Positions 33,063 through 55,481 of a DNA stretch of 64,000 nucleotides are shown one piece after another. Source of the DNA: an uncultured Aminicenantes bacterium (GTDB lineage: Bacteria > Acidobacteriota > Aminicenantia > UBA2199). Position numbers and translations under genes: made by a program. The notes under the pieces are model-generated. The model was not told where the DNA came from. It saw only the letters and a program-made list of their open reading frames with translations, and ran no database searches. Each line of letters begins with the position of its first letter. Position 1 is the first letter of the stretch. The stretch is from contig CBDAFS010000015.1 of the NCBI GenBank assembly GCA_965195285.1, positions 74,138-138,137 of the forward strand, written 5' to 3'.

Positions 33063-33097
33063 ATAAAAAAATGACCCCTAAAAGAATCGAATCTTTA
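33063..33097 (-). repeat. att-like duplicate of the tRNA-Lys 3' end
   Basis: ATAAAAAAATGACCCCTAAAAGAATCGAATCTTTA versus ATAAAAAAATGACCCCTAAAGGAATCGAACCTTTA at 55400. Confidence 0.8.
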
Positions 33098-33171
33098 TTT
33101 CTCTTTTATGTAAAAAAAAGAGAACCAAGCGAATTTCAATACTTCAAAAGACCGTCCCTTTTCATCTCTAT

Positions 33172-33200
33172 TTGACAATCTCAATGTTATTAGCTAAACT
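33172..33200 (+). promoter_or_regulatory. Sigma70-type promoter of the metal-uptake operon
   Basis: TTGACA-N17-TAAACT upstream of a GGAGG RBS. Confidence 0.5.
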
Positions 33201-33235
33201 TTGCCCTCATCACTTTGTTAAATGGAGGACAGTTA

Positions 33236-34450
33236 ATGATGAAAAAAATCCTTGTTGTATTAATAATAATACCAATAACAATCAGCACTCTTTATACCCA
33301 GAGCCAAAAGATATCATCACCTTTTTCACAGGCCAAATTTGTACCTAACATTTCTGCTATCCTTGATTTTTCATATATTTACACAGATATTGATGATATG
33401 GAATTCGGCAGAATGTATTTGCCAGGATATTCAACCATTACTGACGATTATAATTATGGATTGAATGGCTTTTCCTTCACCTATTTTGAGCTGGCCCTTG
33501 AATCGGTTGTGGATCCTTATTTTGATCTTTTTGCGGTTTTTCAATTTGCAATCGGTGAATTTTCAATAGAGGAAGCCTTTTTTAGAACCAGGAGCCTTCC
33601 GGCAGGTTTTCAAATCAAAGGGGGAAAATTTTTCAGTGGTTTGGGAAGACTAAATTCCCAGCATGATCACAGATGGAATTTTTGTGACCAGCCCCTCATC
33701 TATAAATCAATTTTTGGAGCCATCAATCTTAATGACCTGGGTATTCAGTTGAATTGGGTAGCCCCAACTGATTTGTTTTTAAAGTTGGGTCTCGAGGTAT
33801 TCCAAGGGCAAAACCAGGAATCTTATTCGTTTCATAACGAAGATATGTTCATCGGTGATATCCTATATGAAAAATCACCTGTTCCCCTGTTTGTCACCTT
33901 TCTTAAAACTTCCACAGATATTGGAAATTTTGTTTTTCTTGGAGGTATAGCTTATGTAAATGGAAAGATTAATAAGTCCTATGATGATGCCGGATATGGG
34001 TTGTCTGGGACCAGTCAGGTTTTGGGAATTGATTTCACTGTTAAATATTTAATAGATTCATATCGTTATCTTAATTTACAGAGTGAATTTTTTTATCGAC
34101 ATATAAAAGGAGACAGAGTTACCGGGGCAGATACCCAAAATATAAAAAAAAGCCATCAGGGATTCTATACAGAACTTATCTGGCGCTACAACCGGAGATG
34201 CCGGTGTGGAATAAGGTATGATCTGGTAAAGGGAGGCGATAATTTATACCTGGATGAAAACAGTATTATTACAGGGGATCTGAATAAATATTCAGCCATG
34301 ATTGAATTTAATGCCACTGAGTTTTCAAGAATTAGGATTCAGTATAATTACAGTAAAGCCAAGGTGTTGGATAATGAATTAAAGACATTTTCTGAAATAT
34401 TCATCAACTGTAATTTTGCTATTGGTGCCCATGGTGCCCACACATTTTAA
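33236..34450 (+). CDS. Outer-membrane beta-barrel protein associated with metal (Zn/Mn) uptake
   Basis: Signal peptide, ELALESVVDPYF, GRLNSQHDH, EFSRIRIQY and a C-terminal GAHGAHTF. Confidence 0.7.
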   Translation: MMKKILVVLIIIPITISTLYTQSQKISSPFSQAKFVPNISAILDFSYIYTDIDDMEFGRMYLPGYSTITDDYNYGLNGFSFTYFELALESVVDPYFDLFAVFQFAIGEFSIEEAFFRTRSLPAGFQIKGGKFFSGLGRLNSQHDHRWNFCDQPLIYKSIFGAINLNDLGIQLNWVAPTDLFLKLGLEVFQGQNQESYSFHNEDMFIGDILYEKSPVPLFVTFLKTSTDIGNFVFLGGIAYVNGKINKSYDDAGYGLSGTSQVLGIDFTVKYLIDSYRYLNLQSEFFYRHIKGDRVTGADTQNIKKSHQGFYTELIWRYNRRCRCGIRYDLVKGGDNLYLDENSIITGDLNKYSAMIEFNATEFSRIRIQYNYSKAKVLDNELKTFSEIFINCNFAIGAHGAHTF

Positions 34451-34466
34451 ATTGAGGAGTTGACCT

Positions 34467-35354
34467 ATGAAAAAGACAGTTATCATATTGATATGTTTTT
34501 TATTTTCTTTTAGCCTGTTTTCTAAGTTAAGGGTGGTTACTACTTATCCCTATATGAAAGATATCACCGATCGAATTGGAAAAGATAAGGTTAATGTTAT
34601 TGCCCTATCTCCGGGCAACTGGGATCCCCATGTTATCATACCCAAACCCTCACTGATTGCTCAGGTCAGAAGAGCTGATCTATTGATCATTAATGGTGGA
34701 CAACTGGAAATCGGATGGATCCCCCCGGTAATCAGACAGGCAAATAATGCCAAGGTCTTGCCATCCAAAAAAGGTTTTTTAGATCTCTCAAATTTTGTCA
34801 AGATGATCCAGGTGCCGGATAGTGTCTCAAGGGAACAGGGTGATATTCATCCAGCGGGAAATCCCCATTATCATCTGGATCCCCATAATATTCCTCTTTT
34901 GATAGATGCAATTGCCGACAAGCTGATTGACCTGGACCCTGATAATATGGAATATTACAATAAAAATAAAGAAGAATTCCTCAATTTATGGAAAATAAAG
35001 ATTGTTGAATGGGAGAAAAAATTGGCCCCGTTGAAGGGGACGAAATACCTTGAGTTTCACAAAAATTTTGATTATTTCTTACAAAGATTTGGCCTGATTG
35101 TTATAGACACTATTGAACCTTTGCCCGGGATACCGCCCACCTCTAGGCACACGATTGATCTGATTAAAAAGTTAAAAACCGAAAAAGTGGCTAAAATTTT
35201 ACATGATGTCTATCACTCATCCAAATGCACCAAATTAATCTCTAAAAAAACCAGTGTCCCCTGGGTTATCATCCCGCATGATGTTTTGGCCATTAATAAA
35301 GTTAAAGATCTCTTTTCATTATATGATGAAATAGTTGATAGGCTGATCAAATGA
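34467..35354 (+). CDS. Metal ABC transporter substrate-binding protein (ZnuA/TroA family)
   Basis: VVTTYP, DPH, GDIHPAGNPHYHLDP and EPLPGIPPT. Confidence 0.88.
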   Translation: MKKTVIILICFLFSFSLFSKLRVVTTYPYMKDITDRIGKDKVNVIALSPGNWDPHVIIPKPSLIAQVRRADLLIINGGQLEIGWIPPVIRQANNAKVLPSKKGFLDLSNFVKMIQVPDSVSREQGDIHPAGNPHYHLDPHNIPLLIDAIADKLIDLDPDNMEYYNKNKEEFLNLWKIKIVEWEKKLAPLKGTKYLEFHKNFDYFLQRFGLIVIDTIEPLPGIPPTSRHTIDLIKKLKTEKVAKILHDVYHSSKCTKLISKKTSVPWVIIPHDVLAINKVKDLFSLYDEIVDRLIK

Positions 35355-36100
35355 TTGAAATTTTGGATATCTTGGCCCCCGCCTTTTTGCTATCCATTGT
35401 TTTACTCGGTATTCACTCCTATTTCGGACTGGAAATAATCAAACGCGGTATCATTTTTACTGATCTGGCCATTGGACAGATGGCGGCATTGGGGACGGCT
35501 GTATCACTTTTGATATGGGAAACTGAATATTATATGGTGTCGCTGGTTTTTGCACTCACAGGAGCCCTGCTGATCGCTTATGCCTCCAAAAGGGTCAAAA
35601 ACTTGGAGGCTTATATCGGACTGCTATATGCTTTTGCTGTCTCGTCTGTGGTTATCCTGCTTTCCCATTCTGCTCATGGAATGGAAAAATTCCACGAGCT
35701 AATGGCTGCTGATATACTTTTTACTCCCATAAATGAAGTTTACAAAACGGCTGTTTTTTATGCATTGCTGGGAATAGGCATCTATTATGCTATGAAAAAA
35801 ACCACTGGATTCATAAGAGATATACTCTTTTTTGTCACCTTTGCGGTCACCGTAACCAGTTCGGTAAAACTGGCGGGCGTACTGGTTATTTTCGCCATTC
35901 TGATTTCACCGGCACTCATTGCCACTATATTAAAGGCCAAAAGGCCGATTTTTTTTGCATGGGGTATTGGATTGATTATTAACCTTATTTCAATTTCAGT
36001 TTCTTATTTAATAGATCTCCCTACTGGTTATACCCTGGTATTTTTCCATGCGCTGTGCTCAATTATTGTCTGTCTGATAAAACCAACAACAAGCGATTGA
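35351..36100 (+). CDS. Metal ABC transporter permease (ABC-3/ZnuB-like)
   Basis: GIHSYFGLEIIKRGIIFTDLAI, SSVKLAGVLVIFAILISPA and DLPTG. Confidence 0.82.
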   Translation: MIEILDILAPAFLLSIVLLGIHSYFGLEIIKRGIIFTDLAIGQMAALGTAVSLLIWETEYYMVSLVFALTGALLIAYASKRVKNLEAYIGLLYAFAVSSVVILLSHSAHGMEKFHELMAADILFTPINEVYKTAVFYALLGIGIYYAMKKTTGFIRDILFFVTFAVTVTSSVKLAGVLVIFAILISPALIATILKAKRPIFFAWGIGLIINLISISVSYLIDLPTGYTLVFFHALCSIIVCLIKPTTSD

Positions 36101-36140: not shown

Positions 36141-36713
36141 TTAACGTTGCCAAAAAGGAGAGTATCTGGTGTTGTTTCTCAATCCCCTTCCTCTACCACG
36201 TCCATTGTAGAAGCTCATATTTCGACCCCTACCACGTGCACGTCCAAAGCCTCTACCATAACCCATACCATAACCTCTGCCAAAACCTGTACGGTAACCT
36301 CTACCCAGATTAATTCCCAGACAGGAGTCAGAAGGAAGTAATACAATCTGTTCAGTGGTTAGTATGCCCAAGGTGTCAAGACGGTAATCCAATATCTTTT
36401 CTTGGAATTTCTGTTGCAGAGCAGAAATTTCTTTTTGTTTGGTTATGATAGCGGTATTGTCCGGAGGTGATTTGAAAAGTAAGGTTCGAAGTTCCAAAGA
36501 CTTGGAGGTTAAGTGATTTTGGATTGGAATAATTTCTTTTGTGAAATTCAGCTGAAGATTTTCAAATTTTACTTTTTGTTCTGTGGTTAAATTCAACATT
36601 GAAGTATAGTTAGTCCAGGGGCACCATGGTGTCCAGCCGGGGGATTGGGCTGATAGAAAAGAATATGATACCAGTATTAGAATGATGCTGAATAAAGTAA
36701 GCGACTTTTTCAT
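36141..36713 (-). CDS. Periplasmic Spy/CpxP/ZraP-like protein with a Gly/Arg-rich tail
   Basis: Signal peptide, two LTxEQ motifs (LTTEQ) and GRGYGMGYGRGFGR repeats. Confidence 0.7.
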   Translation of the reverse strand: MKKSLTLFSIILILVSYSFLSAQSPGWTPWCPWTNYTSMLNLTTEQKVKFENLQLNFTKEIIPIQNHLTSKSLELRTLLFKSPPDNTAIITKQKEISALQQKFQEKILDYRLDTLGILTTEQIVLLPSDSCLGINLGRGYRTGFGRGYGMGYGRGFGRARGRGRNMSFYNGRGRGRGLRNNTRYSPFWQR

Positions 36714-36885
36714 AATTAACTCCTTTATATTTTATTAGTCATGTTAGGTAATAGTTGCATTTAATCTTCTATATATTAATACAGATGTTGGCTGTTTTTT
36801 CTTTCATTTTTTTTAAAAAAGGAAGGGATTATTTAAATAATCATTTGGGTTAACACTTTTTATTTAAATGAAGATTAACGGTTGG

Positions 36886-37641
36886 TTATTGTGTCCGATT
36901 TCTTCTTTTGTGCCAAAATCCTCTGATTTCATGCTTTCTGCCATAACCACGGCCAAATAAAGGTCGAATTTCGCTGGCTATAAATTTGTTATCCCCTGTC
37001 TTATTTCCAATGAGCTTTATCTTTAACCCGATTTCCGGTCTACGTTTTCCTCGCCATAGCGTGTTTGAAATATCGATTTCCCAAACAATACCCTGCAAAT
37101 CTTTGACATTTATTTCTTGCGAAGATACTAATTTTACAATTTCTCCGGCTAACAGTCCTTTTTGGGGAGACATCCACATTCTGTGCCTGCCAGAATTTAT
37201 CATGCGATAAATCGGGATATTTTTTTGAAATACAGATTCGAGCCTTTCTGAAAAACCGGTTTGATATAAGAGGAGTCCGCCAATAATTGAAAGTAAAATA
37301 CTGGATAGAATTATGATTGTCGTGTTGATCCGATACCCTTTCTCTGTGCGTCTAAAATAGTAATAAGCCACTACTAAAAAAAAGAATAAAAAAACAAACC
37401 AGAAATAGGGAAGTATTAAGATTACATAACCCAACAACGTATAATTCAGAAGATGATATAAATCCCAGTCAACATGCTTTATTTGGAAAATAACCACACT
37501 GCTGGCAATAATTCCGAGCAGGATTGATAATCCAAACAGCGTCCAGGTAACTGATTTTTTCAAAATAAAATATTTTTTAGGATACGGTTTGAGTTTCTCT
37601 TTTTTGATTTTTTTGATGACATTTTTACTTATCTCAGTCAT
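36886..37641 (-). CDS. Membrane protein, probable anti-sigma factor
   Basis: Three TM helices, Y.FRRTEKGYR, C-terminal OB-like GLLAGEI...FIASEIRP; overlaps the ECF sigma stop. Confidence 0.6.
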   Translation of the reverse strand: MTEISKNVIKKIKKEKLKPYPKKYFILKKSVTWTLFGLSILLGIIASSVVIFQIKHVDWDLYHLLNYTLLGYVILILPYFWFVFLFFFLVVAYYYFRRTEKGYRINTTIIILSSILLSIIGGLLLYQTGFSERLESVFQKNIPIYRMINSGRHRMWMSPQKGLLAGEIVKLVSSQEINVKDLQGIVWEIDISNTLWRGKRRPEIGLKIKLIGNKTGDNKFIASEIRPLFGRGYGRKHEIRGFWHKRRNRTQ

Positions 37642-38249
37642 TGTTCACCCTTTAACCAATAATGTTTTATTAGTTTTTTAAATTTTGATTTTGCCCGGTT
37701 AATCAACGTGGCAACGGTTCCGGGAGGTTTTCGTAAAATATCGCTTATTTCGGTATATTTTTTATCTTCAAGGTATCGAAGAACCAGTACTTCTCGATAT
37801 TTATGGGGAAGTTTTGAGAGTAACTCTCTAATGTTGTCCGCTTTTTCTCTTGATATTAATGCCTGATAAGGATAGCTCTCATCATTAATAATGTGGGATA
37901 AGTTAATAATATCACTATGGTTGAGTTGCAAATGGGACTTGGGTAATCGGGATTCACTTTTTTTATAGAAATTTATTATTTCATTATGTGCAATACGGTA
38001 AATCCAACTGGAAAATTTTAACTTTTGATTGAATCCATTAAGATTACAATAAACTTTGATAAAAATGTCCTGTAAAATATCTTCTGATTCCGGATGGGTA
38101 ATATCTGATATTCGATTAATATAACGCAATAATTTCCTTTCATACCTTTTGATCAAATAGTAAAAATATTTTTTATTTCTCAAAGAAAGTTGCACCAATT
38201 CTTCATCGGTCAGTTTTTCAATTTTTCTAACTGTTGAGTTTTCAGACAT
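37638..38249 (-). CDS. ECF RNA polymerase sigma factor (SigW-like)
   Basis: LTDEELV, EDILQDIF, FSSWIYRIAHN, YREVLVLRY and GTVATLINRAK. Confidence 0.9.
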   Translation of the reverse strand: MSENSTVRKIEKLTDEELVQLSLRNKKYFYYLIKRYERKLLRYINRISDITHPESEDILQDIFIKVYCNLNGFNQKLKFSSWIYRIAHNEIINFYKKSESRLPKSHLQLNHSDIINLSHIINDESYPYQALISREKADNIRELLSKLPHKYREVLVLRYLEDKKYTEISDILRKPPGTVATLINRAKSKFKKLIKHYWLKGEQ

Positions 38250-38264
38250 GAGTAAAACCAATTG

Positions 38265-38666
38265 TTATCCAGATTTCTCAGAAGTTGAATCAATGAGCTT
38301 TTCCAAGAGGCGGCGTTCTTTCTTAGTCGGTCGGCCGCTGCCTTTTCCTCTGGCAGCGAAAATCAGACCCAGAGGGTTGTTTCTGGCCTGATCCAGTTTT
38401 TCAAGGTCGGCGACCGGGGTGATCTCCTCGACCAATTCGCGAGCCATGGCAGCCGAGACTCTTTTGACTGCAAGGTTCTTAACCAGGTATTGGCGCACGA
38501 TCGGCGGCTGCTTGATGAATATGATTTCCCCGGCCCGGATCGGACGGGAGGGCTTGACCGCGCTTCCGGCAACCTGGACGCGACCGCCGCGGCAAACCCT
38601 GTTGGCCAGGCTCCTGGTCTTGAAAAGCCGCGCGGCCCACAACCATTGATCGATCCGAGTTGACAT
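38265..38666 (-). CDS. hslR: Ribosome-associated heat shock protein Hsp15 (S4 domain)
   Basis: RIDQWLWAARLFKTRSLA and GSGRPTKKERR. Confidence 0.88.
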   Translation of the reverse strand: MSTRIDQWLWAARLFKTRSLANRVCRGGRVQVAGSAVKPSRPIRAGEIIFIKQPPIVRQYLVKNLAVKRVSAAMARELVEEITPVADLEKLDQARNNPLGLIFAARGKGSGRPTKKERRLLEKLIDSTSEKSG

Positions 38667-38787: not shown

Positions 38788-39108
38788 GGGGTCAAGTCTT
38801 TAATTCACGTTTCGTGATAAGCCTCATTATTTCAATCACCTTATTCTCAACCGAGGAGTATTTATTAACATATGATAATGGTTAGGTTTCAAAGCAAACG
38901 CATATATATTAACAGACCATAATTCTGATGCCTGGGAAAGCAAGTCAATAAAAGTTTGGTAATCCTCATCATCTAAATAAATTATCTCCAATCTCCTTCC
39001 CCTGTTCATAACATGATACCAGGCTCCAGGATATTCAATTCTTAAAGGCCTGCTCATGACAATACAATATCATTATATTCTTGAAACGAAGTCCAAAGAC
39101 TTGACCCC
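38788..39108 (-). mobile_element. TIR-flanked Y1/HUH (RAYT-like) transposase element, internally deleted
   Basis: Inverted GGGGTCAAGTCTTT termini at 38788 and 39108, with extra tandem copies at 38753 and 38766. Confidence 0.75.
38792..39057 (-). pseudogene. REP-associated tyrosine (Y1) transposase pseudogene
   Basis: MSRPLRIEYPGAWYHVMNRG...PNHYHML (HUH motif) stops after 73 aa; another frame carries a plausible C-terminal tail VENKVIEIMRLITKRELKT* ending in the repeat. Confidence 0.8.
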
Positions 39109-39379
39109 TTTATTTATTATGTGATACGATTAGCAGGTGCAAAAGAGTAATAAAGTAAGGCACCGTCCCCGTAATTTAATTATTGATTGTAAACAGAGAT
39201 TTGACTTTCTTAAATTGTTAAATTAGTATAGTTAGTAAAAGCATAGTCTTCCATTTAGAGCTCTATTTTGGAGAGAATGTCATTATGAGTACAATTTTTT
39301 CCTTAAAAAAATCGCGGAGGTGAACGATGGGGTTATTTTTTGATTTTAACAAAACATTTAATGAAATGGGTAGGGCATT

Positions 39380-42115: not shown

Positions 42116-42140
42116 ACGCATAATCGGGGTCAGGTCTAAA

Positions 42141-43784
42141 CAGGCTGTTGCCCAAATAAGGTTTTTTATATTTAAGGGTTGAGGGAAAATATTCCGAAAA
42201 GGCCTATAATATTGATTAATTAAGCATTTCATGGTATAATATTGTTTTTTGAGGTGTTTAAAAATGATGGGTAACGAAGAGAGTCAAGAGGACAAATTCA
42301 TTTACAATTTTCGTCTCAGTAAACGTATACCTTTGGATCATCCTTTAAGAAAGATAAGGGATATGCTTGATCTTGATTTTCTGTATGATCTTCTAAAGAG
42401 AAAGTACGGAACCAGGGGCAATGTATCAGTACCGCCTCCGGTATTGATGAAGATGATGTTGTTGTTGGTATTTTACAATGTTCGTTCGGAGCGAGAGTTG
42501 ATGCGAACCATACCTATGAGATTAGATTGGATTTGGTTTTTAGGATATGACCTGGACGATGATATTCCGCATCATAGTGTATTATCCAAAGCCAGGAAGC
42601 GTTGGGGAGAGGCAGTATTTAAAGAGTTATTCGAACGAATACTGCTTCAGGCTGCCGAATCCGGTTTGGTAGATGGGGGTAAGCTTTTTGCGGATTCTTC
42701 ATTGGTTGAGGCAGATGCATCGAGGAATTCGGTAAAAAGGATAAGCAATATGAAATTAGCCTCCACTTATAAGGAGTTGTTAAACAGGTTGGATGAAGGA
42801 GAGTCAGAGGATGAAGAGGAGCCGGGGGATAAAGGGAATGAAGGAGGCCGATACAGTAAAGTAAATAAGATACATAAGAGTGACACCGATCCTGAAGCAA
42901 CCATAGTTCGTCAGCAGGGGAGTTCAGATCTTTATTATAAAGTTCACCGCAGTGTAGATGAGAGGTGTGAAGTGATAACCTGTTGTCATACGACAACCGG
43001 AATAGTGAATGAGGCTCATGTTCTGAAAGATCTGATAGATGGTCATAAGGCGATTTTAGGTTGTGATCCGGGAATAATTGTGGCAGACAGCAAATATGGT
43101 ACAAAGGAGAATTTTGTTAAATTAAAGAAGAGGGGGATCAAGACTCATATCAAAGATTTATCCATGGCCCAGAAAGAAGGAGGGTCAAGGAAAGGGAAAT
43201 TTTCGAAGGAAGATTTTGAATATAACATTGAGGGGGATTATTTTGTATGTCCAGGTGGAGAGAAATTAAAAAAGAGGTCCTATAATCCCAATCGTGGTTG
43301 GTACGAATACAAAGCGAGTAAGAATAAATGTGATGTATGCCGCCTTCGATTACAGTGCACAGCTGACAAAAATGGTCGTAGTTTGAAGAGGCACCCGGAG
43401 GAAAAATATTTACAGTTGGCCAAACAGGATGCCCATAGTATTGGAGCGAAAGCTGATTTAAAGAAGAGGCAGCACTTAATGGAAAGGAGCTTTGCGACCG
43501 GTATCCGTTATGGCTATAAAAGAGCCAGGTGGAGGAATATGTGGCGAGTATCGATTCAGCAGTATTTAATAGCAACTGTCCAGAACCTTCAGAAGATTTT
43601 CATTTATGGAGGGGATTTAAGACATAATAAGGCAATTTATCTTAATTTGTTACAAAAATTTAGCTTAAAAAATTGTATATTTGGAATATTAACAAAAATT
43701 AATCTCAATCTCAGTGTTTTAAATTTAAAAGTATAGTAAATTTATAAATGTGGTGTTTAAGATTATGGTTTAGGCAACAGCCTG
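42141..43784 (+). mobile_element. IS1182-family insertion sequence (1644 bp)
   Basis: Inverted repeats CAGGCTGTTGCC(C/T)AAA (15/16) and a 4-bp target duplication TAAA. Confidence 0.85.
42264..43736 (+). CDS. IS1182-family DDE transposase
   Basis: IPLDHPLRKI, RSERELM, PHHSVLS, DSSLVEADAS, TDPEA, ADSKYG, CPGG and C..C...QC. Confidence 0.88.
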   Translation: MMGNEESQEDKFIYNFRLSKRIPLDHPLRKIRDMLDLDFLYDLLKRKYGTRGNVSVPPPVLMKMMLLLVFYNVRSERELMRTIPMRLDWIWFLGYDLDDDIPHHSVLSKARKRWGEAVFKELFERILLQAAESGLVDGGKLFADSSLVEADASRNSVKRISNMKLASTYKELLNRLDEGESEDEEEPGDKGNEGGRYSKVNKIHKSDTDPEATIVRQQGSSDLYYKVHRSVDERCEVITCCHTTTGIVNEAHVLKDLIDGHKAILGCDPGIIVADSKYGTKENFVKLKKRGIKTHIKDLSMAQKEGGSRKGKFSKEDFEYNIEGDYFVCPGGEKLKKRSYNPNRGWYEYKASKNKCDVCRLRLQCTADKNGRSLKRHPEEKYLQLAKQDAHSIGAKADLKKRQHLMERSFATGIRYGYKRARWRNMWRVSIQQYLIATVQNLQKIFIYGGDLRHNKAIYLNLLQKFSLKNCIFGILTKINLNLSVLNLKV

Positions 43785-44194
43785 TAAAGAATAAAGAAAT
43801 CGATTGTCCAAGAATATGGTTTTCCTACAAATCAACAGTACTTTTTTCAACTAAAAAGTAATTGATTTTTAAATAAAACATTTCTACATTTGTGTGCGTC
43901 GTCCCCCTTTTTCAGCATTTTAAATATTCCTATTTAATTGGGATGTTAAATTTGACGGGAGCGAAAGGGATGAGTTGGAAAAATAAAAAATTGTAGAAAG
44001 AGTGAACAAGGAAATTCGACATCGAGTATTGGAATGAAAAACATTACAGACAAATCTTTATTCTTTAGACTTGACCCCTAAGATTTTTTTTTTGAATTAG
44101 ATGGATGGTGTTTTGTGGGGCTGATATTGTTATTTCGTAACCACTCTATCAAAGACTAGATGCATATCTTTGCTGAAGTAGGATAGGGGGTTTA

Positions 44195-47059: not shown

Positions 47060-47203
47060 ACAAAAAAATCCCAATGTCCTAACGGATCGTGCAAAATACA
47101 AGACCTGACCCTATTAAACTTCATAGATCAATAATACTTTTTTCAAATAAAAAGTAATTGATTTTTAAATACAGCATTTCTACAATTTGTGTGCACCGTC
47201 ACC

Positions 47204-48549: not shown

Positions 48550-48752
48550 GGGGTCAGGTCTAAAGAATAAAGAAATCGATTGCACACCGCATTTTAAATA
48601 TTCCTATTTAATTGGGATGTTATATTTGACGGGGGCGAAAGGGATGTGTTGTAAAAATAAAGAATAGTAGAAAGAGTGAACAAGGATATTCGACATCGAG
48701 TATTGGAATGAAAAACATTACAGACAAATCTTTATTCTTTAGACCTGACCCC
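48550..48752. repeat. GGGG-TIR MITE copy 2 (intact, 203 bp)
   Basis: Perfect 24-bp terminal inverted repeat GGGGTCAGGTCTAAAGAATAAAGA / TCTTTATTCTTTAGACCTGACCCC. Confidence 0.85.
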
Positions 48753-48766: not shown

Positions 48767-51730
48767 CTATTTATTACCTTCCAGCTCTTTCACCCTTTTT
48801 CTGGCATCTTCAACCAGGGGCTGGAACTGTTGATCGCAATCTTTCCATAAATCGATAAATTTATTGTAGTTTTCAATGGCCTTGCCTTTCCAGCCTTTTT
48901 GTTCATATATTTTCCCCAGCATGTAAAAGCTTTTAGCATAGATATCTCCAAAGATGAGCCTGCCGGTGGTTAGAGATAGGATCTTTTCATACTGTTCCTG
49001 AGCTTTTTCAAAATCTCCCTTTATATAAAAAGCCGCGGCCAGGGGTTCGATAAACAAAGCATGCTGATCTGCTGAGTACATCTTATGTTGATGGGGCAGC
49101 AAAGTTATGGCTTTTTTAAAATATTCTACAGCTTTTGAAGAATTGTTTCTTTTTGATTCGATCATTCCCATAAGATGAAAATAAAATCTTGTACGCTTTT
49201 GGTTCATTCCTTTTTTGATCAATTCCCTGAGTTCATCTGCGGTTTTTTGGGCTAAATCCAGTGATCTTTTAGCAGCCAACACAACTCCCTTATAATACAA
49301 TATCGATGTTTGATTCCCCAGGTTCTTTCCTTTGACTGCCCTGTCCCATTCAATTTTGCACTCTTTTAATGCCTCACTGTGATTTCCTGATTTGAGATAT
49401 TTGTAAATTAAAGATCTCTTGAAGATTAAATGCCAGGCCCACTGACCGGACCTTTTGGCCAGTTTGAGTCCCAATCTTACCTGGTTTAGCGATTCATTGA
49501 ATTTTCCTGATAATAAAAACAAAGAGGATAACATCAACCTGCCATACAATTTATTTGGTGTTCCACCGGATTCAAGAAGTTTCCGGTATTCCCGTTCCGA
49601 TTTAATCATATCTCCTTTATAAATATAAATATCACCCTTTAAACGGAAATCATAAAAAGAATCAGGGTTTATAGAAGATGCCTTGTCTGCTTCAGCAATG
49701 GCAAGTTCATATTTGTTCTGGAGAATATAAATATGGGCCAGTCGGCGGCGAATAAAGGCATTGTCCGAAATATTATTGAGATAAAAACTTAGTAATTCCT
49801 CTGCCCTGTCATATAAACCCTTTGCTTCATATGCTTCTGCTAAAGTATAATATGACGTTATACTTTCAGCACTTAAAGAGATTTTGAATTTTTCTATGGC
49901 CTTGTCCCACTCTTCCAAATCGCTGTATAAGAGCCCCAACTGGTGGTGGCCGGATAAATCTTCAGGGTAAAATTGCAGCAATTTTTTATAGGCTGCCATG
50001 GCTTTTTTATCGTTGTTTTCCACATTTAAATAGAACTCAGCCTGGTTTCGGTAACGCTCTCTATCTGATATCCTGTCACTCAATTCAAAGGATTTCTTTA
50101 CATATCTTTTCATAGCATTAAAATCACCTATATTATAGGAAGCCATTGCCAGTGACCGGTAAGCAGTGGCAAACCTGGGATCAATGGCTATAGCTTTCTT
50201 GTAATAGGGGATAGCTTTTCGGTAATTTCCGTTTTGATATAATTTTCCAGCTGTAATGTAGTTTTTATATGCTTCAAGAGACGAGGTGGTAATGGTCCCG
50301 ATATTCCTGTCGATATCTTCAGAAATTACCTGCTCGGAAAGATCGAAATTCAATTTGATCTTTTTTGTGACCTCATCCACCTTTGATAAGACATTTTTTT
50401 CTCCCCTGGACTCTACGGTTAATGAGTTAATAATGTCACCTGAATCGGCTTTATAAATCATTATGTTGATACGAAAATTTTCACCGATTTTGATATAGTT
50501 TCCCCTGATTATGTGATTTGTTTTCCCACGGGCAGCGACTTTTAATAAATCCTCGGTAGAGTATTTTTTTGATTCCAGTAGATTCAATTTTTTCAGGATA
50601 CCGAAGAGTCTGTCTCCTGGTAAAACATTGATCAGTTTTGACTGGGATAAGTCTGTGATAAGTAACTCTGCAAGAGCGCTGCGCCAGTAATCCAGTTTCT
50701 CATCTCCTGTGTTGTTCTCAAAGTATACAATGGCAATTGAGGGTTTTTCCCCTGGTTTAATTACAGGTGTTTCTGGTTTCGGTTTTCCTTTGAATATAAA
50801 ATAACCGGCAATGATGATAACCGCAATAAAAATACTTCCCAGAATCAAAACTTTTTGAGAGGCTTTCAGGGTGATCTCCGGACTGGTTTTTTTTCTGGAA
50901 ACGCTTACATCCGGCGTTGAGTCCTTTTTCAGTTTTTCCAGGTCAACCATCATATCATCCACATGCTGGTACCTTTCAGAAGGATCTTTGACCAGGGCCT
51001 TGTTAATAATCCGCTCCAGTTCCTGGGGAACTCCGGTGCGTATAGCAGTGACAGGCTCCGGATCCTCGTTTAAAATGGCATATACAACTGCCTGTTCATA
51101 ATCCCCTTTAAAAGGTAATTGACCCGTAACCATTTCATAGAGCAATACGCCCAGGGACCAGATATCAGTCCTGTGATTCACCTTCTTGCCCATGGACTGT
51201 TCGGGTGACATGTAGGATGTGGTTCCCACCGTGGTGCCGACTTTGGTTAATTTGGATTTTCCCTTTAGCTTGGCCAGACCGAAATCCATGATCTTCACCT
51301 GGCCTTTTTCATTTATCATGATATTAGCACTTTTGATATCTCTGTGAACAATCCCCTTCTCATGTGCTTCCTGCAGGCCTTCTGCAATCTGAAATGCAAT
51401 TTTTAAGGATTCATCTATTTTTAAAGGACCAGATTCGATCTTTTCTTTTAGGTTCTGGCCTTCAATATAACTCATGGCTATAAAAATCTGGTCTTCCTGT
51501 TCATCTATCTCATAAATTGAGCAAATATTCTGGTGTTCCAGAGCAGCCGAAGCTTGAGCTTCTATAAAAAACCTTTCCTTGGAATCCTTATCTCTGGTAA
51601 ACTCGGGAGGCAGAAATTTCAGGGCAACTGTACGTTTTAGTTTTGTATCCTCAGCCTTATAAACAACTCCCATTCCACCTTCACCGAGTTTCTCAAGGAT
51701 TTTGTAGTGGGAAATGGTTTTTCCGATCAT
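48767..51730 (-). CDS. Ser/Thr protein kinase with TM, TolB_N-like and TPR domains
   Basis: LGEGGMGVVY, VALKFL, HRDIKSAN, DFGLAK and YMSPEQ, then IAIVYFENNTGD and TPR repeats. Confidence 0.9.
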   Translation of the reverse strand: MIGKTISHYKILEKLGEGGMGVVYKAEDTKLKRTVALKFLPPEFTRDKDSKERFFIEAQASAALEHQNICSIYEIDEQEDQIFIAMSYIEGQNLKEKIESGPLKIDESLKIAFQIAEGLQEAHEKGIVHRDIKSANIMINEKGQVKIMDFGLAKLKGKSKLTKVGTTVGTTSYMSPEQSMGKKVNHRTDIWSLGVLLYEMVTGQLPFKGDYEQAVVYAILNEDPEPVTAIRTGVPQELERIINKALVKDPSERYQHVDDMMVDLEKLKKDSTPDVSVSRKKTSPEITLKASQKVLILGSIFIAVIIIAGYFIFKGKPKPETPVIKPGEKPSIAIVYFENNTGDEKLDYWRSALAELLITDLSQSKLINVLPGDRLFGILKKLNLLESKKYSTEDLLKVAARGKTNHIIRGNYIKIGENFRINIMIYKADSGDIINSLTVESRGEKNVLSKVDEVTKKIKLNFDLSEQVISEDIDRNIGTITTSSLEAYKNYITAGKLYQNGNYRKAIPYYKKAIAIDPRFATAYRSLAMASYNIGDFNAMKRYVKKSFELSDRISDRERYRNQAEFYLNVENNDKKAMAAYKKLLQFYPEDLSGHHQLGLLYSDLEEWDKAIEKFKISLSAESITSYYTLAEAYEAKGLYDRAEELLSFYLNNISDNAFIRRRLAHIYILQNKYELAIAEADKASSINPDSFYDFRLKGDIYIYKGDMIKSEREYRKLLESGGTPNKLYGRLMLSSLFLLSGKFNESLNQVRLGLKLAKRSGQWAWHLIFKRSLIYKYLKSGNHSEALKECKIEWDRAVKGKNLGNQTSILYYKGVVLAAKRSLDLAQKTADELRELIKKGMNQKRTRFYFHLMGMIESKRNNSSKAVEYFKKAITLLPHQHKMYSADQHALFIEPLAAAFYIKGDFEKAQEQYEKILSLTTGRLIFGDIYAKSFYMLGKIYEQKGWKGKAIENYNKFIDLWKDCDQQFQPLVEDARKRVKELEGNK

Positions 51731-52101
51731 GTATCATCTCTCCGATGAATTTTATAGCATATAGATATTTTATTTTCAATAAAAGGGGATTAACTTTTGA
51801 TTTTAATTTATCATAGAAAAAAAATGTCCCATGAAGGAATCAAATCCCTTCAATTCTGGCCAGATCCGGCCTATCCACCACCTCCTCCCCTGATCGCCCA
51901 ATCCCGCAAAATGCACACTATCTGCCTCACCTTTGGGACCGGTGGCATCCGGTGGGGAATGGGGGGGGTGGGTATTCCTATACAGTATAGTGCAATTCTT
52001 CATGAATTTCACAAGTATATTGAACTATAACATTTTCTTGACTTTCATTTTAAAACTCCCTAAAATATCTTCGTGTTTATATTTGAAATGGAGGAGGAGA
52101 A

Positions 52102-52773: not shown

Positions 52774-53025
52774 ATGAAAATTACCAAACAAGATGTGGTT
52801 TGGGCATATCGGCTTATGCTGGACAGAGATCCGGAGAGAGAAGAGGTTATTGAGAACTATATTAAAATATGCAATACGCCGGAGCAACTCAGGGATATAA
52901 TATTATCCTCGGAAGAATTCAATGAAAGAAATCCGACTTTTGCCCAAAACTATATCAAGATTCCATTTCCGCCGGAAGAGCTGATGCACTTGGTGGCTGG
53001 ATTGTATGACTGGGGTCAGGTCTAA
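52774..53025 (+). pseudogene. Truncated gene (DUF4214-like N-terminus, probably a methyltransferase) cut by a GGGG-TIR
   Basis: AYRLMLDRDPE...ILSSEEF, then PFPPEELMHLVAG; the last codons and stop come from GGGGTCAGGTCTAA at 53012. Confidence 0.55.
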
Positions 53026-53125
53026 AGAATAAAGAAATCAATTGTTTCCGTCATTTTTAAGGATCCACATTTAAATGGGATGATTTGTTTATTTGAAGGG
53101 TCGAAAAGGAGAAATTGTAAAAAAA
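53012..53125 (+). repeat. GGGG-TIR MITE copy 3 (left end with diverged body)
   Basis: GGGGTCAGGTCTAAAGAATAAAGAAATC followed by a degenerate version of the MITE interior. Confidence 0.7.
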
Positions 53126-53573
53126 ATGATCCAATTATCTTAATATTATATGTTGTAATGTAAAATTTGTCCCCAGTCTATGTAAACTATACAAAAATGC
53201 CCAAAATTGCAAAAAAGGTCAAATAAGATTAAACTCAAGAACTCAAGCACCGTCCCCATCAGTAGTAACCTGGTTTAGAATGTATGGAGTGTTTTTAGGT
53301 TAATATATGTAAGTGTCAAATAAAGTACATCTTCACAAGATTACCTTATGCCAAAACTTCTATTGATTGTGAGGCCCTCATGGCACAAGAGAGTTTACGG
53401 CGGAAAAAGGTAGCAACCAAAGTAATATCAATGGTTTCGGGAGTATTTAAGCCTACAATAAACCGCACTATCCATAGTTAGATATGGTAAACTCGATTTT
53501 AGGCCTGGAAACCCTTTATTATCAACGGTTTCAAATGTGGTTTTTGGGAGTTTGATATGAAAATTAAAATTCT

Positions 53574-54896
53574 CTATAAACTATCCGGGAATTTTTCTTC
53601 CTTAGGTTCAGTTTTAATGTTTTTCAGTTCATTCATTATTGCTAAGGTTTCCCTATATTCTTTGGCTTCAGCTACTTTGGTAAATTCTATCTCCTCGTGC
53701 TCAGATCTTACTTTTTTTTCGATATCTTCTAATTCAACTTGAAAGAATTCTTTCCTAAAATTAACCTGATTCAATCGAGTTGCTTTAAATTCCTGGTGTA
53801 ATATAGCTTCCAATTCTGGAGCGTTTTCAGAATAAATCATCGCATGAACATCAAATGCAAATGGTACTGAAGCATCACCAAGTTCTTTCACACGATCTAA
53901 GGGTTCCAGTCTCCTGGTCAATCCAATTTTATAAACCCTTTCCCCAAAAGATCCAATATTTGAGATAATATACACATGACCAGATTTGGTCAGTTGAGCT
54001 CTGGAAATAGCTCGCTCCTTTTTCTCTTGTGCATCTTCCAATGCTTGTTGCATTTCAATTAGTTTTTTATTTAGGGATTCCATTTCCTCATCCTTAGCCA
54101 TGGTCATTTTTGCTTTTACTTCAGCAAGAGCTTTCTGATATTTTCTCTCATCATCCTCTGCCTCTTTTTTTGCTTGCTCAATTTCTTTTTGAACTTTTTC
54201 CTCTTCCCTCATTTGTTTTCTAATTTTTCGTTGTTCCTCTTTTTCTTCATATTTTTTTTCTTGATATTCATGCGCCAAATGTAGTTCTTTGATTTTTAAG
54301 TCCAAGTAGGAATCCGTTATATATATTCTATTTGGTTCACCCAATTTATTGATAGTTTCAAAAGCCTTTTTAATTCTCTCTTCCATTTTAATTATATTAT
54401 TCCATTTAACCTTTAATACTGTAGCATCGCATTCTCCATTAAAGGCTCTTAACATTAATTTCATGCTTCTGTTTGTCATCTGTCTGCCTTTGACCTTGCT
54501 TCCCTCAACAGTCCACTCAGTATTACAAATAATCGCATCTTTTTCTTTTATGAGAGATTTTTGTTCTTTAAGGATCATATCCAATTCCTCTTTATACTTT
54601 TCTGAGGTGTCAAAATCAAAATGGGGATGATAAACCCCATATGTAGTAAATTCGTATTCTTCTTGAATTATACTTAGGTCCAAAAGAAATTTATCGTATA
54701 TTTCTTTTTTAACTTTGTAGTCAGATTTCATTTCTTCAAATTCTTTAGTTTTTAAATCAATTTCTGCATCAATATCAATTATTCCTTTGTATTTTTTGTA
54801 CAGGTAATCGTGTTTCTGTTTAAATTTAAAAAATAGAAATATAAATCCAAATAGTAAAACAATAGAGATAATGAGAAAAATGAGATAATTGTCCAT
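53574..54896 (-). CDS. DUF4041 / T5orf172 (MUG113, GIY-YIG-like) domain protein
   Basis: N-terminal TM, LMLRAFNGEC, coiled coil, GHVYIISNIGSFGE.VYKIGLTRR, ELGDASVPF.FDVH and RKEFF. Confidence 0.88.
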   Translation of the reverse strand: MDNYLIFLIISIVLLFGFIFLFFKFKQKHDYLYKKYKGIIDIDAEIDLKTKEFEEMKSDYKVKKEIYDKFLLDLSIIQEEYEFTTYGVYHPHFDFDTSEKYKEELDMILKEQKSLIKEKDAIICNTEWTVEGSKVKGRQMTNRSMKLMLRAFNGECDATVLKVKWNNIIKMEERIKKAFETINKLGEPNRIYITDSYLDLKIKELHLAHEYQEKKYEEKEEQRKIRKQMREEEKVQKEIEQAKKEAEDDERKYQKALAEVKAKMTMAKDEEMESLNKKLIEMQQALEDAQEKKERAISRAQLTKSGHVYIISNIGSFGERVYKIGLTRRLEPLDRVKELGDASVPFAFDVHAMIYSENAPELEAILHQEFKATRLNQVNFRKEFFQVELEDIEKKVRSEHEEIEFTKVAEAKEYRETLAIMNELKNIKTEPKEEKFPDSL

Positions 54897-55408
54897 AACT
54901 GCCTCCTGTAATAATTTTAAAACAGGTTATATATCATTCCCAAAAAACTTTAGTTAAAGTTTAAACAGGTGATATTCAAAAGTCAAATAAATCGATTCTG
55001 AAGCTCGTTAATAAATTCAAGAAAATAAAGAAATTACCTTAATATATAGGCTGTTTTGACAGTTTTATAATAAAATCCATGATCCAAACCCTTACTAAGG
55101 TATACAAAGTTTGATTTTGGGTCTGGAAACCCTCTATTATCAACACTTTGAAATGAGGTTTTTGGGTATTTGAGAACGTTAGGGGGTGTTGGTGTTTTTT
55201 ATTGATATTATTACAAAGTTGTGATTGAAAAATTTCAATCAATGGGAATACGGATGGCCTCCACCAATTCGCCTGGCCATGAACTATTGAAAGAGAAGAG
55301 GGACGGTGCTTTGAAACTTGGAAATTTGATGCCCAATTTCATGTAGAATGCAAACTTAACAAATTGTTCTAATATTTGAGTTCAAAATAGGGAAGGGAAA
55401 TAAAAAAA

Positions 55409-55481
55409 TGACCCCTAAAGGAATCGAACCTTTAACCTATTGATTAAGAGTCAATTGCTCTGCCAATTGAGCTAAGGGGCC
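55409..55481 (-). tRNA. tRNA-Lys(CTT)
   Basis: GGCCCCT TA GCTC AATTGGCA GAGC A ATTGA CT-CTT-AA TCAAT AGGTT AAAGG TTCGATT CCTTT AGGGGTC A; complete cloverleaf, CCA not encoded. Confidence 0.95.

What the first reader, a model, noticed from the sequence alone, without database searches (positions are those of the whole stretch)
33063..55434. Integrase-less tRNA-Lys island whose reconstructed attachment site is itself a ~200-bp inverted-repeat-bracketed unit
Seen: the tRNA-Lys 3' end is duplicated 22 kb away (33063-33097 vs 55400-55434, 33/35 identical). Just inside each boundary is one arm of a 21-bp inverted repeat: TTCAAAAGACCGTCCCTTTTC (33143-33163) and GAAGAGGGACGGTGCTTTGAA (55295-55315), 18/21 complementary. 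These arms belong to the GCACCGTCCCC motif family also found at 39160, 43896, 47193 and 53247. Joining the two att copies in silico gives a ~206-bp unit GGGACGGT...[tRNA 3' fragment]...ACCGTCCC, about the size of the island's 203-bp GGGG-TIR MITE. I found no tyrosine or serine integrase. Apart from the IS1182 DDE transposase and an IS3 stub, the only recombination-type gene is a Y1/HUH transposase relic. Inference: a G-rich TIR/HUH system may have captured a tRNA 3' fragment and used it to dock or accumulate cargo at a tRNA. The conventional alternative is arm sites of a lost integrase.
Basis: partly seen in the sequence, partly recalled or inferred. Interest (0 to 1): 0.8.

Follow-up and report, generated by a model that had tools for sequence, protein, structure and literature searches.

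The report
Decayed integrase-less tRNA-Lys genomic island
A 22-kb stretch beside a lysine tRNA gene looks like the worn-down, patchwork remnant of inserted mobile DNA that has lost the enzyme that inserted it, which is a known and fairly common fate rather than a new kind of element.

Summary
The last 26 nt of tRNA-Lys(CTT) plus 9 nt of its T-run are repeated 22.3 kb away (33/35). One arm of an inverted repeat lies just inside each copy. I extend the arms from 21 bp to 32 bp (25/32), and no shuffle or random window pair reached their score. No integrase or resolvase, and no relic of one, was detected anywhere in the 64-kb window.

The interval is AT-richer than its flanks (GC3 0.38 vs 0.49) and is a mosaic. 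It holds a metal-uptake operon, an ECF sigma module, a truncated pyruvate kinase, an IS1182 nested in a MITE-like element, a 73-aa RAYT stub and a SNIPE/PD-lambda-1 defence gene next to the tRNA.

Best reading: a decayed tDNA island of the CIME type. The direct repeats are attL/attR cores (T-arm type). The arms are accessory or arm-type protein sites of a former ~206-bp attP.

The att halves resemble neither the MITE nor the REP repeats beyond chance, and the Y1 gene is dead.

The empty-site test could not be done. Ordinary overall; modest interest.

The parts
55408..55482 (-). Intact tRNA-Lys(CTT) gene, the integration target. Its 3' end faces the island.
   Evidence: ARAGORN; Rfam RF00005 at 73.1 bits.
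55400..55434 (.). tRNA-proximal copy of the 35-bp direct repeat (att core). It comprises 26 nt of the tRNA 3' end (T-stem/loop/stem and acceptor 3' strand) plus 9 nt of the T-run.
   Evidence: (D4). A terminator-like hairpin plus T-run was found here.
33063..33097 (.). Displaced tRNA-Lys 3' fragment (distal att copy), 33/35 identical and in the same orientation as the tRNA.
   Evidence: (D4).
33132..33163 (+). Left arm of the inverted repeat, starting 34 bp inside the distal core. It abuts a sigma-70-like promoter at 33172-33200 that faces the porin-like operon.
   Evidence: 25/32; promoter scan.
55295..55326 (-). Right arm of the inverted repeat, ending 73 bp inside the tRNA-proximal core.
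51816..51850 (.). Possible third, decayed tRNA-3'-end-like relic (25/35 to the core, same orientation). If real, the island is a tandem of an 18.7-kb part and a 3.5-kb part.
   Evidence: D4, 71%. In one search, 2 of 200 block shuffles reached 25/35, and the best match in the other 41.5 kb of the window was 21/35. No arm motif lies next to it.
53574..54896 (-). SNIPE / PD-lambda-1 homologue (N-terminal transmembrane helix, DUF4041, T5orf172/GIY-YIG nuclease). This anti-phage defence gene is the gene nearest the tRNA.
   Evidence: PADLOC PD-Lambda-1, E 1.9e-173; Pfam DUF4041, MUG113 and T5orf172; PHROG 1847; passages of PMC13190303.
53472..53555 (.). 84-nt direct repeat D2a, just downstream of the SNIPE gene. 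Its partner D2b lies at 55090-55173 (77% identical).
   Evidence: D2.
55090..55173 (.). 84-nt direct repeat D2b, upstream of the SNIPE gene.
   Evidence: D2.
33236..36100 (+). Operon at the island's left edge: porin-like outer-membrane protein (no Pfam hit), ZnuA-type metal-binding protein and ABC-3 permease. No ATPase gene is present.
   Evidence: Pfam; relatives of the first gene; RBS and ATG at 33236 read.
36141..38666 (-). LTXXQ/Metal_resist periplasmic protein, a membrane protein (putative anti-sigma factor, inferred), an ECF sigma factor and an Hsp15-like S4 protein.
   Evidence: Pfam; NCBIfam Hsp15.
38836..39057 (-). Y1/HUH (RAYT-like) transposase relic of 73 aa. It retains HUH (HYH) but lacks the C-terminal half. 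GGGGTCAAGTCT repeats flank it in inverted orientation (38766 and 38788 on +, 39097 on -).
   Evidence: Pfam Y1_Tnp positions 6-60 of 121, E 2.8e-5; translation; repeats.
42126..44078 (.). GGGG-TIR MITE-like element interrupted by an IS1182-family IS (42141-43784, TIR CAGGCTGTTGCC, 4-bp duplication TAAA) and by a ~106-bp repeat unit (about 43807-43914).
   Evidence: (D8, D10, I23, I24); Pfam DUF772 and DDE_Tnp_1_6.
48550..48752 (.). Intact 203-bp MITE-like element with perfect 24-bp terminal inverted repeats.
   Evidence: (I3).
44476..45492 (-). Truncated pyruvate kinase: barrel domain only, matching model positions 2-339 of 476.
   Evidence: Pfam PK; NCBIfam TIGR01064.
48767..51730 (-). Ser/Thr protein kinase with a TPR-rich C-terminal region (987 aa).
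   Evidence: Pfam. The kinase domain matches PD-T4-6 models in PADLOC, which I read as generic kinase similarity.
39160..39170 (+). Internal copy of GCACCGTCCCC (0 mismatches), intergenic.
53247..53257 (+). Internal copy of GCACCGTCCCC (0 mismatches), intergenic. It shares TCAA(A)GCACCGTCCC with the right arm, in inverted orientation, 2.07 kb away across the SNIPE gene.
47127..47203 (+). 77-bp repeat unit (AT-rich palindrome followed by GCACCGTCACC). Its second copy at 43831-43905 sits inside the disrupted MITE-like element.
   Evidence: D5, 90%.

Best explanation
The interval 33098-55399 is the decayed, mosaic remnant of one or more integrative elements that entered the 3' end of tRNA-Lys(CTT) by site-specific recombination.

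Shown:
- An intact tRNA gene plus a displaced 3' fragment lie in direct orientation and bound the interval.
- The interval is compositionally distinct from both flanks.
- The core contains the T-stem/T-loop/T-stem. This is a natural 5-bp inverted repeat around a 7-nt spacer, the layout of core-type sites of tyrosine recombinases.
- One arm of a 32-bp inverted repeat lies 34 bp inside one core copy and the other 73 bp inside the other copy.
- No recombinase gene or relic is left.

Inferred:
- The element was once circular, with a ~206-bp attP made of arm, core and arm.
- A heterobivalent tyrosine integrase, with or without an excisionase or host factor, bound the arms and exchanged strands in the T-loop region. 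This regenerated the tRNA from element DNA and pushed the old 3' end 22 kb away.
- The integration module was later deleted. The island then became a dumping ground for an IS1182, MITE/REP-type repeats, a RAYT gene that itself decayed, gene fragments and a SNIPE defence gene.

Today it is an att-bounded element without an integrase, which is the definition of a CIME. It can move only if a cognate integrase is supplied from elsewhere.
For: - tRNA plus displaced 3' fragment, same orientation, 33/35 identical. This is the signature used to map tDNA islands (abstract and search-strategy passages of PMC4383910).
- The core spans the T-arm and acceptor 3' strand, matching the 'T-stem region' class of att sites tabulated in PMC4383910.
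- The arms are significant and symmetric about the core. The rebuilt span of 206 bp is on the scale of lambda attP, which is ~240 bp with Int arm-binding sites on both sides of a C-O-C' core (introduction of bioRxiv 10.1101/2023.11.06.565760).
- Foreign composition: GC is 0.369 against 0.422 and 0.446 in the flanks. GC3 is 0.381 for 17 island ORFs against 0.490 for 27 flank ORFs (Mann-Whitney p = 5e-5).
- Mosaic and decay: truncated pyruvate kinase, RAYT stub, nested IS, and 8 exact GGGGTCARGTCT copies, all inside the island.
- A defence gene, SNIPE/PD-lambda-1, sits at the tRNA-proximal end.
- There is a possible third, decayed tRNA-3'-like relic. This fits the decay-then-accretion history described for CIMEs (passage of PMC5704250).
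- No integrase was found in the whole window.
Against: - No integrase, excisionase, relaxase or any relic of one was found. That a tyrosine recombinase made the junctions is therefore inferred from anatomy only.
- There is only one arm per side, whereas characterised attP sites have several arm-type sites.
- Copies of the arm's core motif also lie inside the island, at 39160, 47193, 53247 and more loosely 43896. The attP model does not explain them.
- The possible internal relic at 51816 has no arms beside it and is only marginally significant (2 of 200 shuffles).
- The gene at the island's left edge has relatives at 96, 85, 80, 80, 77, 73, 72, 71 and 71% identity. This runs parallel to the flanking DEAD helicase (95, 95, 93, 83, 77, 75, 67%) and LOG protein (94, 91, 90, 88, 79%).
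- A 65%-identical helicase and a 71%-identical edge protein both come from a contig of 22,724 nt in the same source. If that is one contig, the helicase-to-edge-gene linkage is old. That sits uneasily with a 33/35 repeat that should be neutral.
- No empty site, circular junction or relative with an integrase could be examined.
Confidence: 0.6

Rival explanations
1. The island is still mobile as a satellite. The two cores and both arms stay in good shape because an integrase encoded elsewhere in the genome, or on an incoming related element, excises and integrates the island in trans or after accretion.
For: - The cores (33/35) and arms (25/32) are well kept, while coding content around them has decayed.
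- Transfer of CIME-ICE tandems has been observed (passage of PMC5704250).
- Only 64 kb of a 138-kb contig was visible.
Against: - No integrase is visible in the window.
- The arms need never have been identical to each other, so 25/32 says little about selection.
- No junction or population data are available.
Confidence: 0.12
2. The arms and their internal relatives are cis-regulatory sites (an operator or promoter element) for island genes, for example targets of the island's ECF sigma factor or another regulator. Their symmetry about the att copies is then incidental.
For: - The motif occurs only in intergenic DNA of the island. All 4 copies with at most 1 mismatch are inside it and none is in the other 41.6 kb.
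- The left arm abuts the -35 box of a sigma-70-like promoter facing the porin-like operon.
- Four copies point toward a downstream gene: 33151 to 33236, 39162 to 39545, 47193 to 47472, and 55300 to 54896.
- Four sites share ATTTC-N15/16-CGTC spacing (alignment A1).
Against: - Distances to the start codons vary from 73 to about 400 bp.
- Two copies (43896, 53249) have no co-oriented gene downstream.
- No such site lies upstream of the ECF sigma operon itself.
- The promoter scan found no promoter-like site beside the right arm; the nearest on its strand starts about 150 bp away.
- The 32-bp match between the two arms is much longer than the 10-15 bp shared with the internal copies.
Confidence: 0.1
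3. The 22 kb is not one acquired block. Its left part (porin-like/ZnuA operon) is native chromosome. The tRNA fragment and arms would then be scars of an older integration followed by rearrangement, for example recombination between two related elements, with later insertions near the tRNA.
For: - The edge gene's relatives parallel those of the flank genes in identity.
- The contig length of 22,724 nt and the source are shared by a helicase homologue (P0022) and an edge-gene homologue (P0251).
- GC3 is heterogeneous inside the island, from 0.27 to 0.65.
- There is a possible internal relic at 51816.
Against: - The edge operon's GC3 (0.33-0.40) is low like the rest of the island and unlike the adjacent helicase (0.51).
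- Matching contig lengths is indirect. The other length coincidence (3636 nt, a helicase and a LOG homologue) is within what chance gives among about 120 x 120 pairs.
- None of the 80 fetched loci shows any synteny.
Confidence: 0.1
4. One reading: a G-rich TIR / Y1-HUH (RAYT-type) system captured a tRNA 3' fragment inside a ~200-bp TIR unit and uses it to dock or accumulate cargo at the tRNA.
For: - A RAYT-like relic with flanking inverted GGGGTCAAGTCT repeats exists in the island.
- GGGGTCA is also the tRNA's 3' end, and 11 of its 12 copies in the window lie in the interval.
- The rebuilt unit (206 bp) and the MITE (203 bp) are similar in size.
Against: - The Y1 gene is a 73-aa stub without the catalytic half.
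- The att halves show no similarity to the MITE or REP repeats beyond shuffles (24 to 131 of 200 shuffles reach the observed scores).
- GGGGTCA is not enriched in the window.
- From my own recall of these families: Y1 elements act on short hairpins in single-stranded DNA and do not make 35-bp target duplications, whereas a tRNA 3' duplication is the hallmark of tyrosine-integrase insertion.
Confidence: 0.03

Closest known systems
[quoted passage not shown]
   Same: Bounded by two att copies at the 3' end of a tRNA gene. No integrase, excisionase or transfer genes. Possible tandem (accretion) history.
   Different: CIMEs were defined in Streptococcus, where the parent ICE is known. Here no parent element, no conjugation relic and no proof of mobilisation exist, and the host is an uncultured, probably Aminicenantes-like bacterium (named hits).
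tDNA genomic islands as mapped by Islander (PMC4383910; abstract and search-strategy passages)
   Same: Intact tRNA plus displaced 3' fragment in the correct orientation marks the end points. The att core is of the T-stem type. The size (22 kb) is typical.
   Different: Islander requires an integrase gene inside the candidate. This interval has none, so that filter would reject it.
Lambda-type attP of heterobivalent tyrosine integrases (description in the introduction of bioRxiv 10.1101/2023.11.06.565760)
   Same: The rebuilt site spans about 200-240 bp. The central core has short inverted repeats around a 7-nt spacer (here the T-stem and T-loop). Additional protein-site-like repeats lie on both arms.
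   Different: Only one repeat per arm was found instead of several. Binding is untested and the integrase is missing.
Defence-gene cargo at integration hotspots: SNIPE / PD-lambda-1 (PMC13190303, passages seen)
   Same: A full-length homologue with a transmembrane segment, DUF4041 and a GIY-YIG-type nuclease is the gene nearest the tRNA.
   Different: It is cargo and not part of the recombination machinery. Its anti-phage activity in this host is untested.

Membership tests
tDNA-integrated genomic island (Islander criteria) | Intact tRNA/tmRNA gene plus a displaced fragment of the same gene, in the same orientation, bounding the island | tested here: met
   35-bp repeat, 33/35, 3' fragment, direct orientation, 22.3 kb apart.
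tDNA-integrated genomic island (Islander criteria) | An integrase gene inside the island | tested here: not met
   0 of 26 ORFs, 0 of 78 frames and 0 of 33 ORFs match an integrase, resolvase or recombinase family.
CIME (cis-mobilizable element) | attL and attR retained | tested here: met
   Both core copies and both flanking arms are present. This is shown at sequence level only.
CIME (cis-mobilizable element) | Integration and transfer genes lost | tested here: met
   No integrase, excisionase, relaxase or type IV secretion family was found among the island ORFs and frames.
CIME (cis-mobilizable element) | Descent from an ICE/IME, and mobilisation after accretion with a related element | not testable with these tools
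   No parent element or relative locus could be fetched. Metagenome contigs were closed.
attP of a heterobivalent tyrosine recombinase | Core with two inverted core-type half-sites around a 6-8 bp overlap | tested here: inconclusive
   The core contains AAAGG-TTCGATT-CCTTT, the T-stem/loop/stem, which has that geometry. The crossover point is unknown.
attP of a heterobivalent tyrosine recombinase | Arm-type binding sites on both sides of the core, bound by the integrase N-domain | tested here: inconclusive
   One significant 32-bp inverted repeat flanks the core at 34 and 73 bp. There is only one site per arm, and binding cannot be tested.
REP/RAYT or IS200/IS605-type Y1 (HUH) element (as the engine of the att unit) | Intact Y1 transposase with the HUH motif and the catalytic tyrosine | tested here: not met
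   The gene is a 73-aa stub matching profile positions 6-60 of 121. HYH is present and the rest is missing.
REP/RAYT or IS200/IS605-type Y1 (HUH) element (as the engine of the att unit) | The unit's ends belong to the repeat family served by the transposase | tested here: not met
   Comparing the att halves with the REP repeats, 24, 51, 73 and 43 of 200 shuffles reach the observed score.
MITE (for the rebuilt 206-bp unit) | Terminal inverted repeats at the very ends, a target-site duplication, and several copies | tested here: not met
   The unit exists only as an in-silico join. No second copy is in the window. It has no similarity to the 203-bp MITE (131 and 77 of 200 shuffles reach the score). 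No flanking duplication is seen at the arm ends (read).

The most novel reading that the evidence does not exclude
The island is not dead. Its split ~206-bp attP (two cores at 33/35, arms at 25/32) is kept because an integrase encoded elsewhere moves this integrase-less cargo and defence island in trans. That would make it a CIME-like satellite in an uncultured Aminicenantes-like lineage, with the internal GCACCGTCCCC copies serving as extra binding sites of the same system.
Probability: 0.12. Interest if true: 0.5.

Novelty: new member of a known kind. Interest (0 to 1): 0.25.

Why it matters
This is an example of how tRNA-linked islands age. The recombinase is lost, while the att scars, accessory sites and a defence gene stay, and the region fills with insertion sequences and small repeats.

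Island finders that demand an integrase would miss such loci, so they are probably under-counted in uncultured lineages. If a helper integrase could still move the att scars, the locus would show cargo mobilisation in trans outside the Firmicutes, where CIMEs were defined.

As it stands, it is a well-preserved but ordinary remnant.

Tried and rejected
- **Empty-site test through genome contigs.** The best locus was only 58% identical. I scanned 23 of the 80 loci for tRNAs (the 20 best plus three others) and none had a tRNA-Lys. tblastn of 23 window proteins against all 80 loci found only 3 generic response-regulator hits and no synteny. In hindsight, a DNA-pattern scan for arm-core-arm would have used that scan better. 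It could not be repeated.
- **Contig-length matching** across the three protein searches. One likely shared contig (22,724 nt; helicase plus edge gene) and one coincidence within chance (3,636 nt; helicase plus LOG). This is indirect and I used it only as a caveat.
- **Phage collection.** blastn of both att halves gave only 26-30-nt matches in 9 records, the best five (30 nt) over the tRNA part of the query (two of them annotated tRNA-Arg), and nothing for the other half. The plasmid and E. coli collections were not searched.
- **Compensatory-pair idea** for the two repeat mismatches. Rejected: they give G52:U62 and A53.C61, not a restored pair.
- **ECF-type promoter reading** of ATTTC-N15-CGTC. 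Kept only as part of a rival; no such site lies upstream of the sigma operon.
- **SSV-type split integrase** (an int gene cut by its own attP). Rejected: only about 140 bp on one side and about 500 bp on the other side of non-coding DNA adjoin the cores, with no Pfam signal.
- **Tn7/CAST-type insertion next to a tRNA.** Rejected: there are no TnsB-type genes or multiple end repeats, and the duplication is 35 bp of tRNA.
- **Integron-cassette reading** of the 84-nt repeats around SNIPE. Dropped: the resemblance to attC core sites is weak and there is no integron integrase.
- **Rfam at permissive threshold** over the island found only the tRNA; the other 11 hits are far below their gathering scores.
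- **PDB sequence search** with the Y1 stub gave no hit.
- **'IS3 stub'** was not found.

Full report
**1. The observation**

ARAGORN finds one tRNA in the window, tRNA-Lys(CTT) at 55408-55482 on the minus strand. Rfam agrees at 73.1 bits.

The 26-nt tRNA part occurs twice in the window and never in 100 shuffles. Read on the tRNA strand, the repeat is the T-stem, T-loop, T-stem and acceptor 3' strand (26 nt), followed by TTTTTTTAT, the T-run after the gene. The two mismatches fall at tRNA positions 53 and 62. They do not restore a pair, so I dropped an early idea that they were compensatory.

They extend toward the core to 32 bp, 33132-33163 and 55295-55326, at 25/32. Plain 18/21 was reached by 1 of 200 shuffles of the two 300-bp end regions. 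A composition-weighted score, which credits the rare G+C-rich centre, was reached by 0 of 300 dinucleotide shuffles and by 0 of 294 random pairs of 300-bp stretches from the window.

Joining the ends gives 140 + 66 = 206 bp. The intact MITE-like element at 48550-48752 is 203 bp (pair I3).

**2. No recombinase**

- Pfam on 26 ORFs of the interval and its borders gave no integrase, resolvase or recombinase.
- I then listed all 274 stop-to-stop frames of at least 35 aa in 32900-55600. I scanned the 72 that overlap intergenic DNA, plus six unassigned ORFs, at E up to 0.5. The result was again none.
- NCBIfam on 22 flank ORFs and 11 island ORFs gave none, so the whole 64-kb window lacks one.
- The unassigned island proteins carry signal peptides, lipoboxes or several membrane segments (sequences). 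They are poor candidates for an unrecognised recombinase.
- The only transposition genes are an IS1182-type DDE transposase and a Y1 stub.

**3. What the interval contains**

It is AT-richer than both flanks: GC 0.369 against 0.422 and 0.446. GC3 is 0.381 for 17 island ORFs against 0.490 for 27 flank ORFs (Mann-Whitney p = 5e-5). It is also heterogeneous, with GC3 from 0.27 to 0.65.

From left to right:
- a porin-like protein, a ZnuA-type binding protein and an ABC-3 permease, with no ATPase gene;
- an LTXXQ periplasmic protein, a membrane protein, an ECF sigma factor and an Hsp15-like S4 protein;
- the Y1 stub;
- an AlaDH/PNT-like protein and a methyltransferase;
- a GGGG-TIR MITE-like element (42126-44078) broken by an IS1182 (42141-43784, 4-bp duplication TAAA);
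- a pyruvate kinase cut after its barrel domain (model positions 2-339 of 476);
- two unknown envelope proteins;
- the intact MITE;
- a 987-aa Ser/Thr kinase with TPR repeats;
- two small unknown genes;
- next to the tRNA, a full-length homologue of PD-lambda-1 (PADLOC E 1.9e-173).

PD-lambda-1 has been renamed SNIPE. It is a membrane-anchored GIY-YIG nuclease with a DUF4041 domain that cleaves phage DNA during injection (passages of PMC13190303). The protein here has the same three parts.

All eight exact copies of GGGGTCARGTCT, plus one copy with one mismatch, lie between 38.7 and 53.0 kb. None lies in the other 41.6 kb.

**4.

The Y1 protein is 73 aa. It has the HUH motif (HYH) and stops a few residues later, matching only profile positions 6-60 of 121. 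It is flanked by inverted GGGGTCAAGTCT repeats, so it looks like a dead RAYT with its REP repeats.

I aligned each att half with the MITE and with the REP repeats and compared the scores with shuffles. In the six comparisons, 131, 24, 51, 77, 73 and 43 of 200 shuffles reached the observed score. There is no similarity beyond chance.

The heptamer GGGGTCA, shared by the tRNA 3' end and the TIRs, is not enriched in the window (12 found, 9.18 expected).

The arms' core motif is a different family. ACCGTCCC occurs 5 times against 1.03 expected. The four copies of GCACCGTCCCC with at most one mismatch are all in the island. The left arm itself differs from that 11-mer at three positions. The total at up to two mismatches (14 against 7.55 expected) was reached by 3 of 100 shuffles.

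So the '206-bp unit resembles the 203-bp MITE' link is a coincidence of size, and no working HUH enzyme is present.

**5. Most likely mechanism**

A tRNA gene regenerated at one end and its displaced 3' fragment at the other end are the defining scars of tyrosine-integrase insertion into tDNA (abstract of PMC4383910). The core here is of the T-stem type tabulated there.

The T-arm supplies a 5-bp inverted repeat around a 7-nt loop, which is the geometry of core-type sites. Lambda attP spans about 240 bp, with Int arm-binding sites on both sides of such a core (introduction of bioRxiv 10.1101/2023.11.06.565760). A 206-bp arm-core-arm unit therefore reads naturally as a former attP, with the arms as sites for the integrase N-domain or an accessory protein.

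The integration module has since been deleted. [quoted passage not shown]

A weaker third tRNA-3'-like stretch at 51816-51850 matches the core at 25/35. Two of 200 block shuffles reached that, and the best match elsewhere in the window is 21/35. It hints at tandem accretion, but no arm lies beside it.

The integration event, the binding role of the arms and the deletion of the integrase are all inferred. None is shown.

**6. What speaks against this or stays open**

- Known attP sites have several arm sites. I find one per side.
- The attP model does not explain the internal motif copies. Several sit upstream of co-oriented genes, and the left arm abuts a sigma-70-like promoter. A regulatory reading therefore remains a rival.
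- One internal copy (53247) forms a 14/15 inverted pair with the right arm across the SNIPE gene. That gene is also bracketed by an 84-nt direct repeat. I cannot explain either feature.
- The edge gene's relatives (96, 85, 80, 80, 77, 73, 72, 71, 71% identity) track those of the flanking helicase (95, 95, 93, 83, 77, 75, 67%) and LOG protein (94, 91, 90, 88, 79%).
- A helicase homologue and an edge-gene homologue share a contig length of 22,724 nt and a source. If they lie on one contig, the island or its left part is old or partly native. That fits poorly with a nearly intact repeat that should be neutral.
- A second length coincidence (3,636 nt, helicase and LOG) is within chance expectation, and I give it no weight.

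**7. What could not be checked**

- So neither an empty site, nor a relative with an integrase, nor other arm-core-arm units could be looked for.
- The phage collection holds nothing similar to the att halves beyond short (26-30-nt) matches, the best five over the tRNA part. The plasmid collection was not searched.
- No supplementary files were consulted.
- Named hits suggest an uncultured Aminicenantes/Acidobacteriota-like host (79% LOG hit; 64% helicase hit). This is weak evidence.

**8. Verdict**

The interpretation as an integrase-less, att-bounded tRNA-Lys island is right. The proposed HUH/TIR capture mechanism is not supported.

The locus is a new example of a known kind, a decayed tDNA island of the CIME type carrying a defence gene. 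Its interest is modest. The boldest reading still allowed is that a helper integrase mobilises it in trans, at about 12%.

Noticed in passing
window 55531-55570 and 55731-55842: The 494-bp spacer between the tRNA and the response-regulator gene holds two repeat arrays. One is a heptamer array (GTTCTAG, 5.7 copies). The other has a 23-bp period (4.9 copies) built around TAATGACAAGTT, with further GTCATTAAGAG copies at about 55627 and 55716. It looks like a set of repeated protein-binding sites.
   Followed up: no
window 53472-53555 and 55090-55173: An 84-nt direct repeat (77% identical) brackets the SNIPE/PD-lambda-1 gene. Outside it lies a 14/15 inverted pair of the TCAA(A)GCACCGTCCC motif (53244-53257 and 55299-55313). 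The defence gene may be a cassette in its own right.
   Followed up: partly
window 43831-43905 and 47127-47203: A ~77-bp repeat unit (the first 61 nt 90% identical) consists of an AT-rich palindrome followed by ATTTCTACA(A)TTTGTGTGC-CGTC-CC. One copy lies within a ~106-bp insertion in the disrupted MITE-like element, so the unit may itself be mobile.
   Followed up: partly
window 42126-44078: Nested insertion: an IS1182-family element (42141-43784, TIR CAGGCTGTTGCC, 4-bp duplication TAAA) sits inside a GGGG-TIR MITE-like element. An intact 203-bp copy of that element is at 48550-48752, and a solo end is at 53012-53035.
   Followed up: yes
window 38746-38805 and 39097-39108: GGGGTCA(A/G)GTCT repeats flank the dead RAYT-like gene in inverted orientation and resemble the MITE ends (GGGGTCAGGTCT). 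All exact copies in the window are inside the island. The 'MITE' may be a REPIN-like doublet served by a RAYT rather than an IS1182 derivative.
   Followed up: partly
window 44476-45492 (-): This pyruvate kinase gene ends after the barrel domain (338 aa, model positions 2-339 of 476). No C-terminal domain was found in the neighbouring frames. It is probably a pseudogene fragment beside the disrupted MITE-like element.
   Followed up: partly
window 38265-38666 (-): The Hsp15-like S4-domain gene has GC 0.567 and GC3 0.649 in an island that averages GC 0.37. It is the strongest compositional outlier in the window.
   Followed up: no
window 51851-51990: A G+C-rich stretch with a run of eight G follows the tRNA-3'-like relic. 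It contains GGGACCGGTGGC, which is close to the arm motif in reverse orientation. It has no ORF with a family hit.
   Followed up: no
window 39386-39431: A 24-bp tandem duplication (TGGTCACCAGGTTTGAGACTTTTC, 1.9 copies) lies upstream of the AlaDH-like gene. The region gave only a sub-threshold microRNA-type Rfam hit.
   Followed up: no
window 1472-2932 (-): This 486-aa ORF matches the 211-position ThyX model in two stretches, so it is probably a tandem-duplicated or fused FAD-dependent thymidylate synthase.
   Followed up: no
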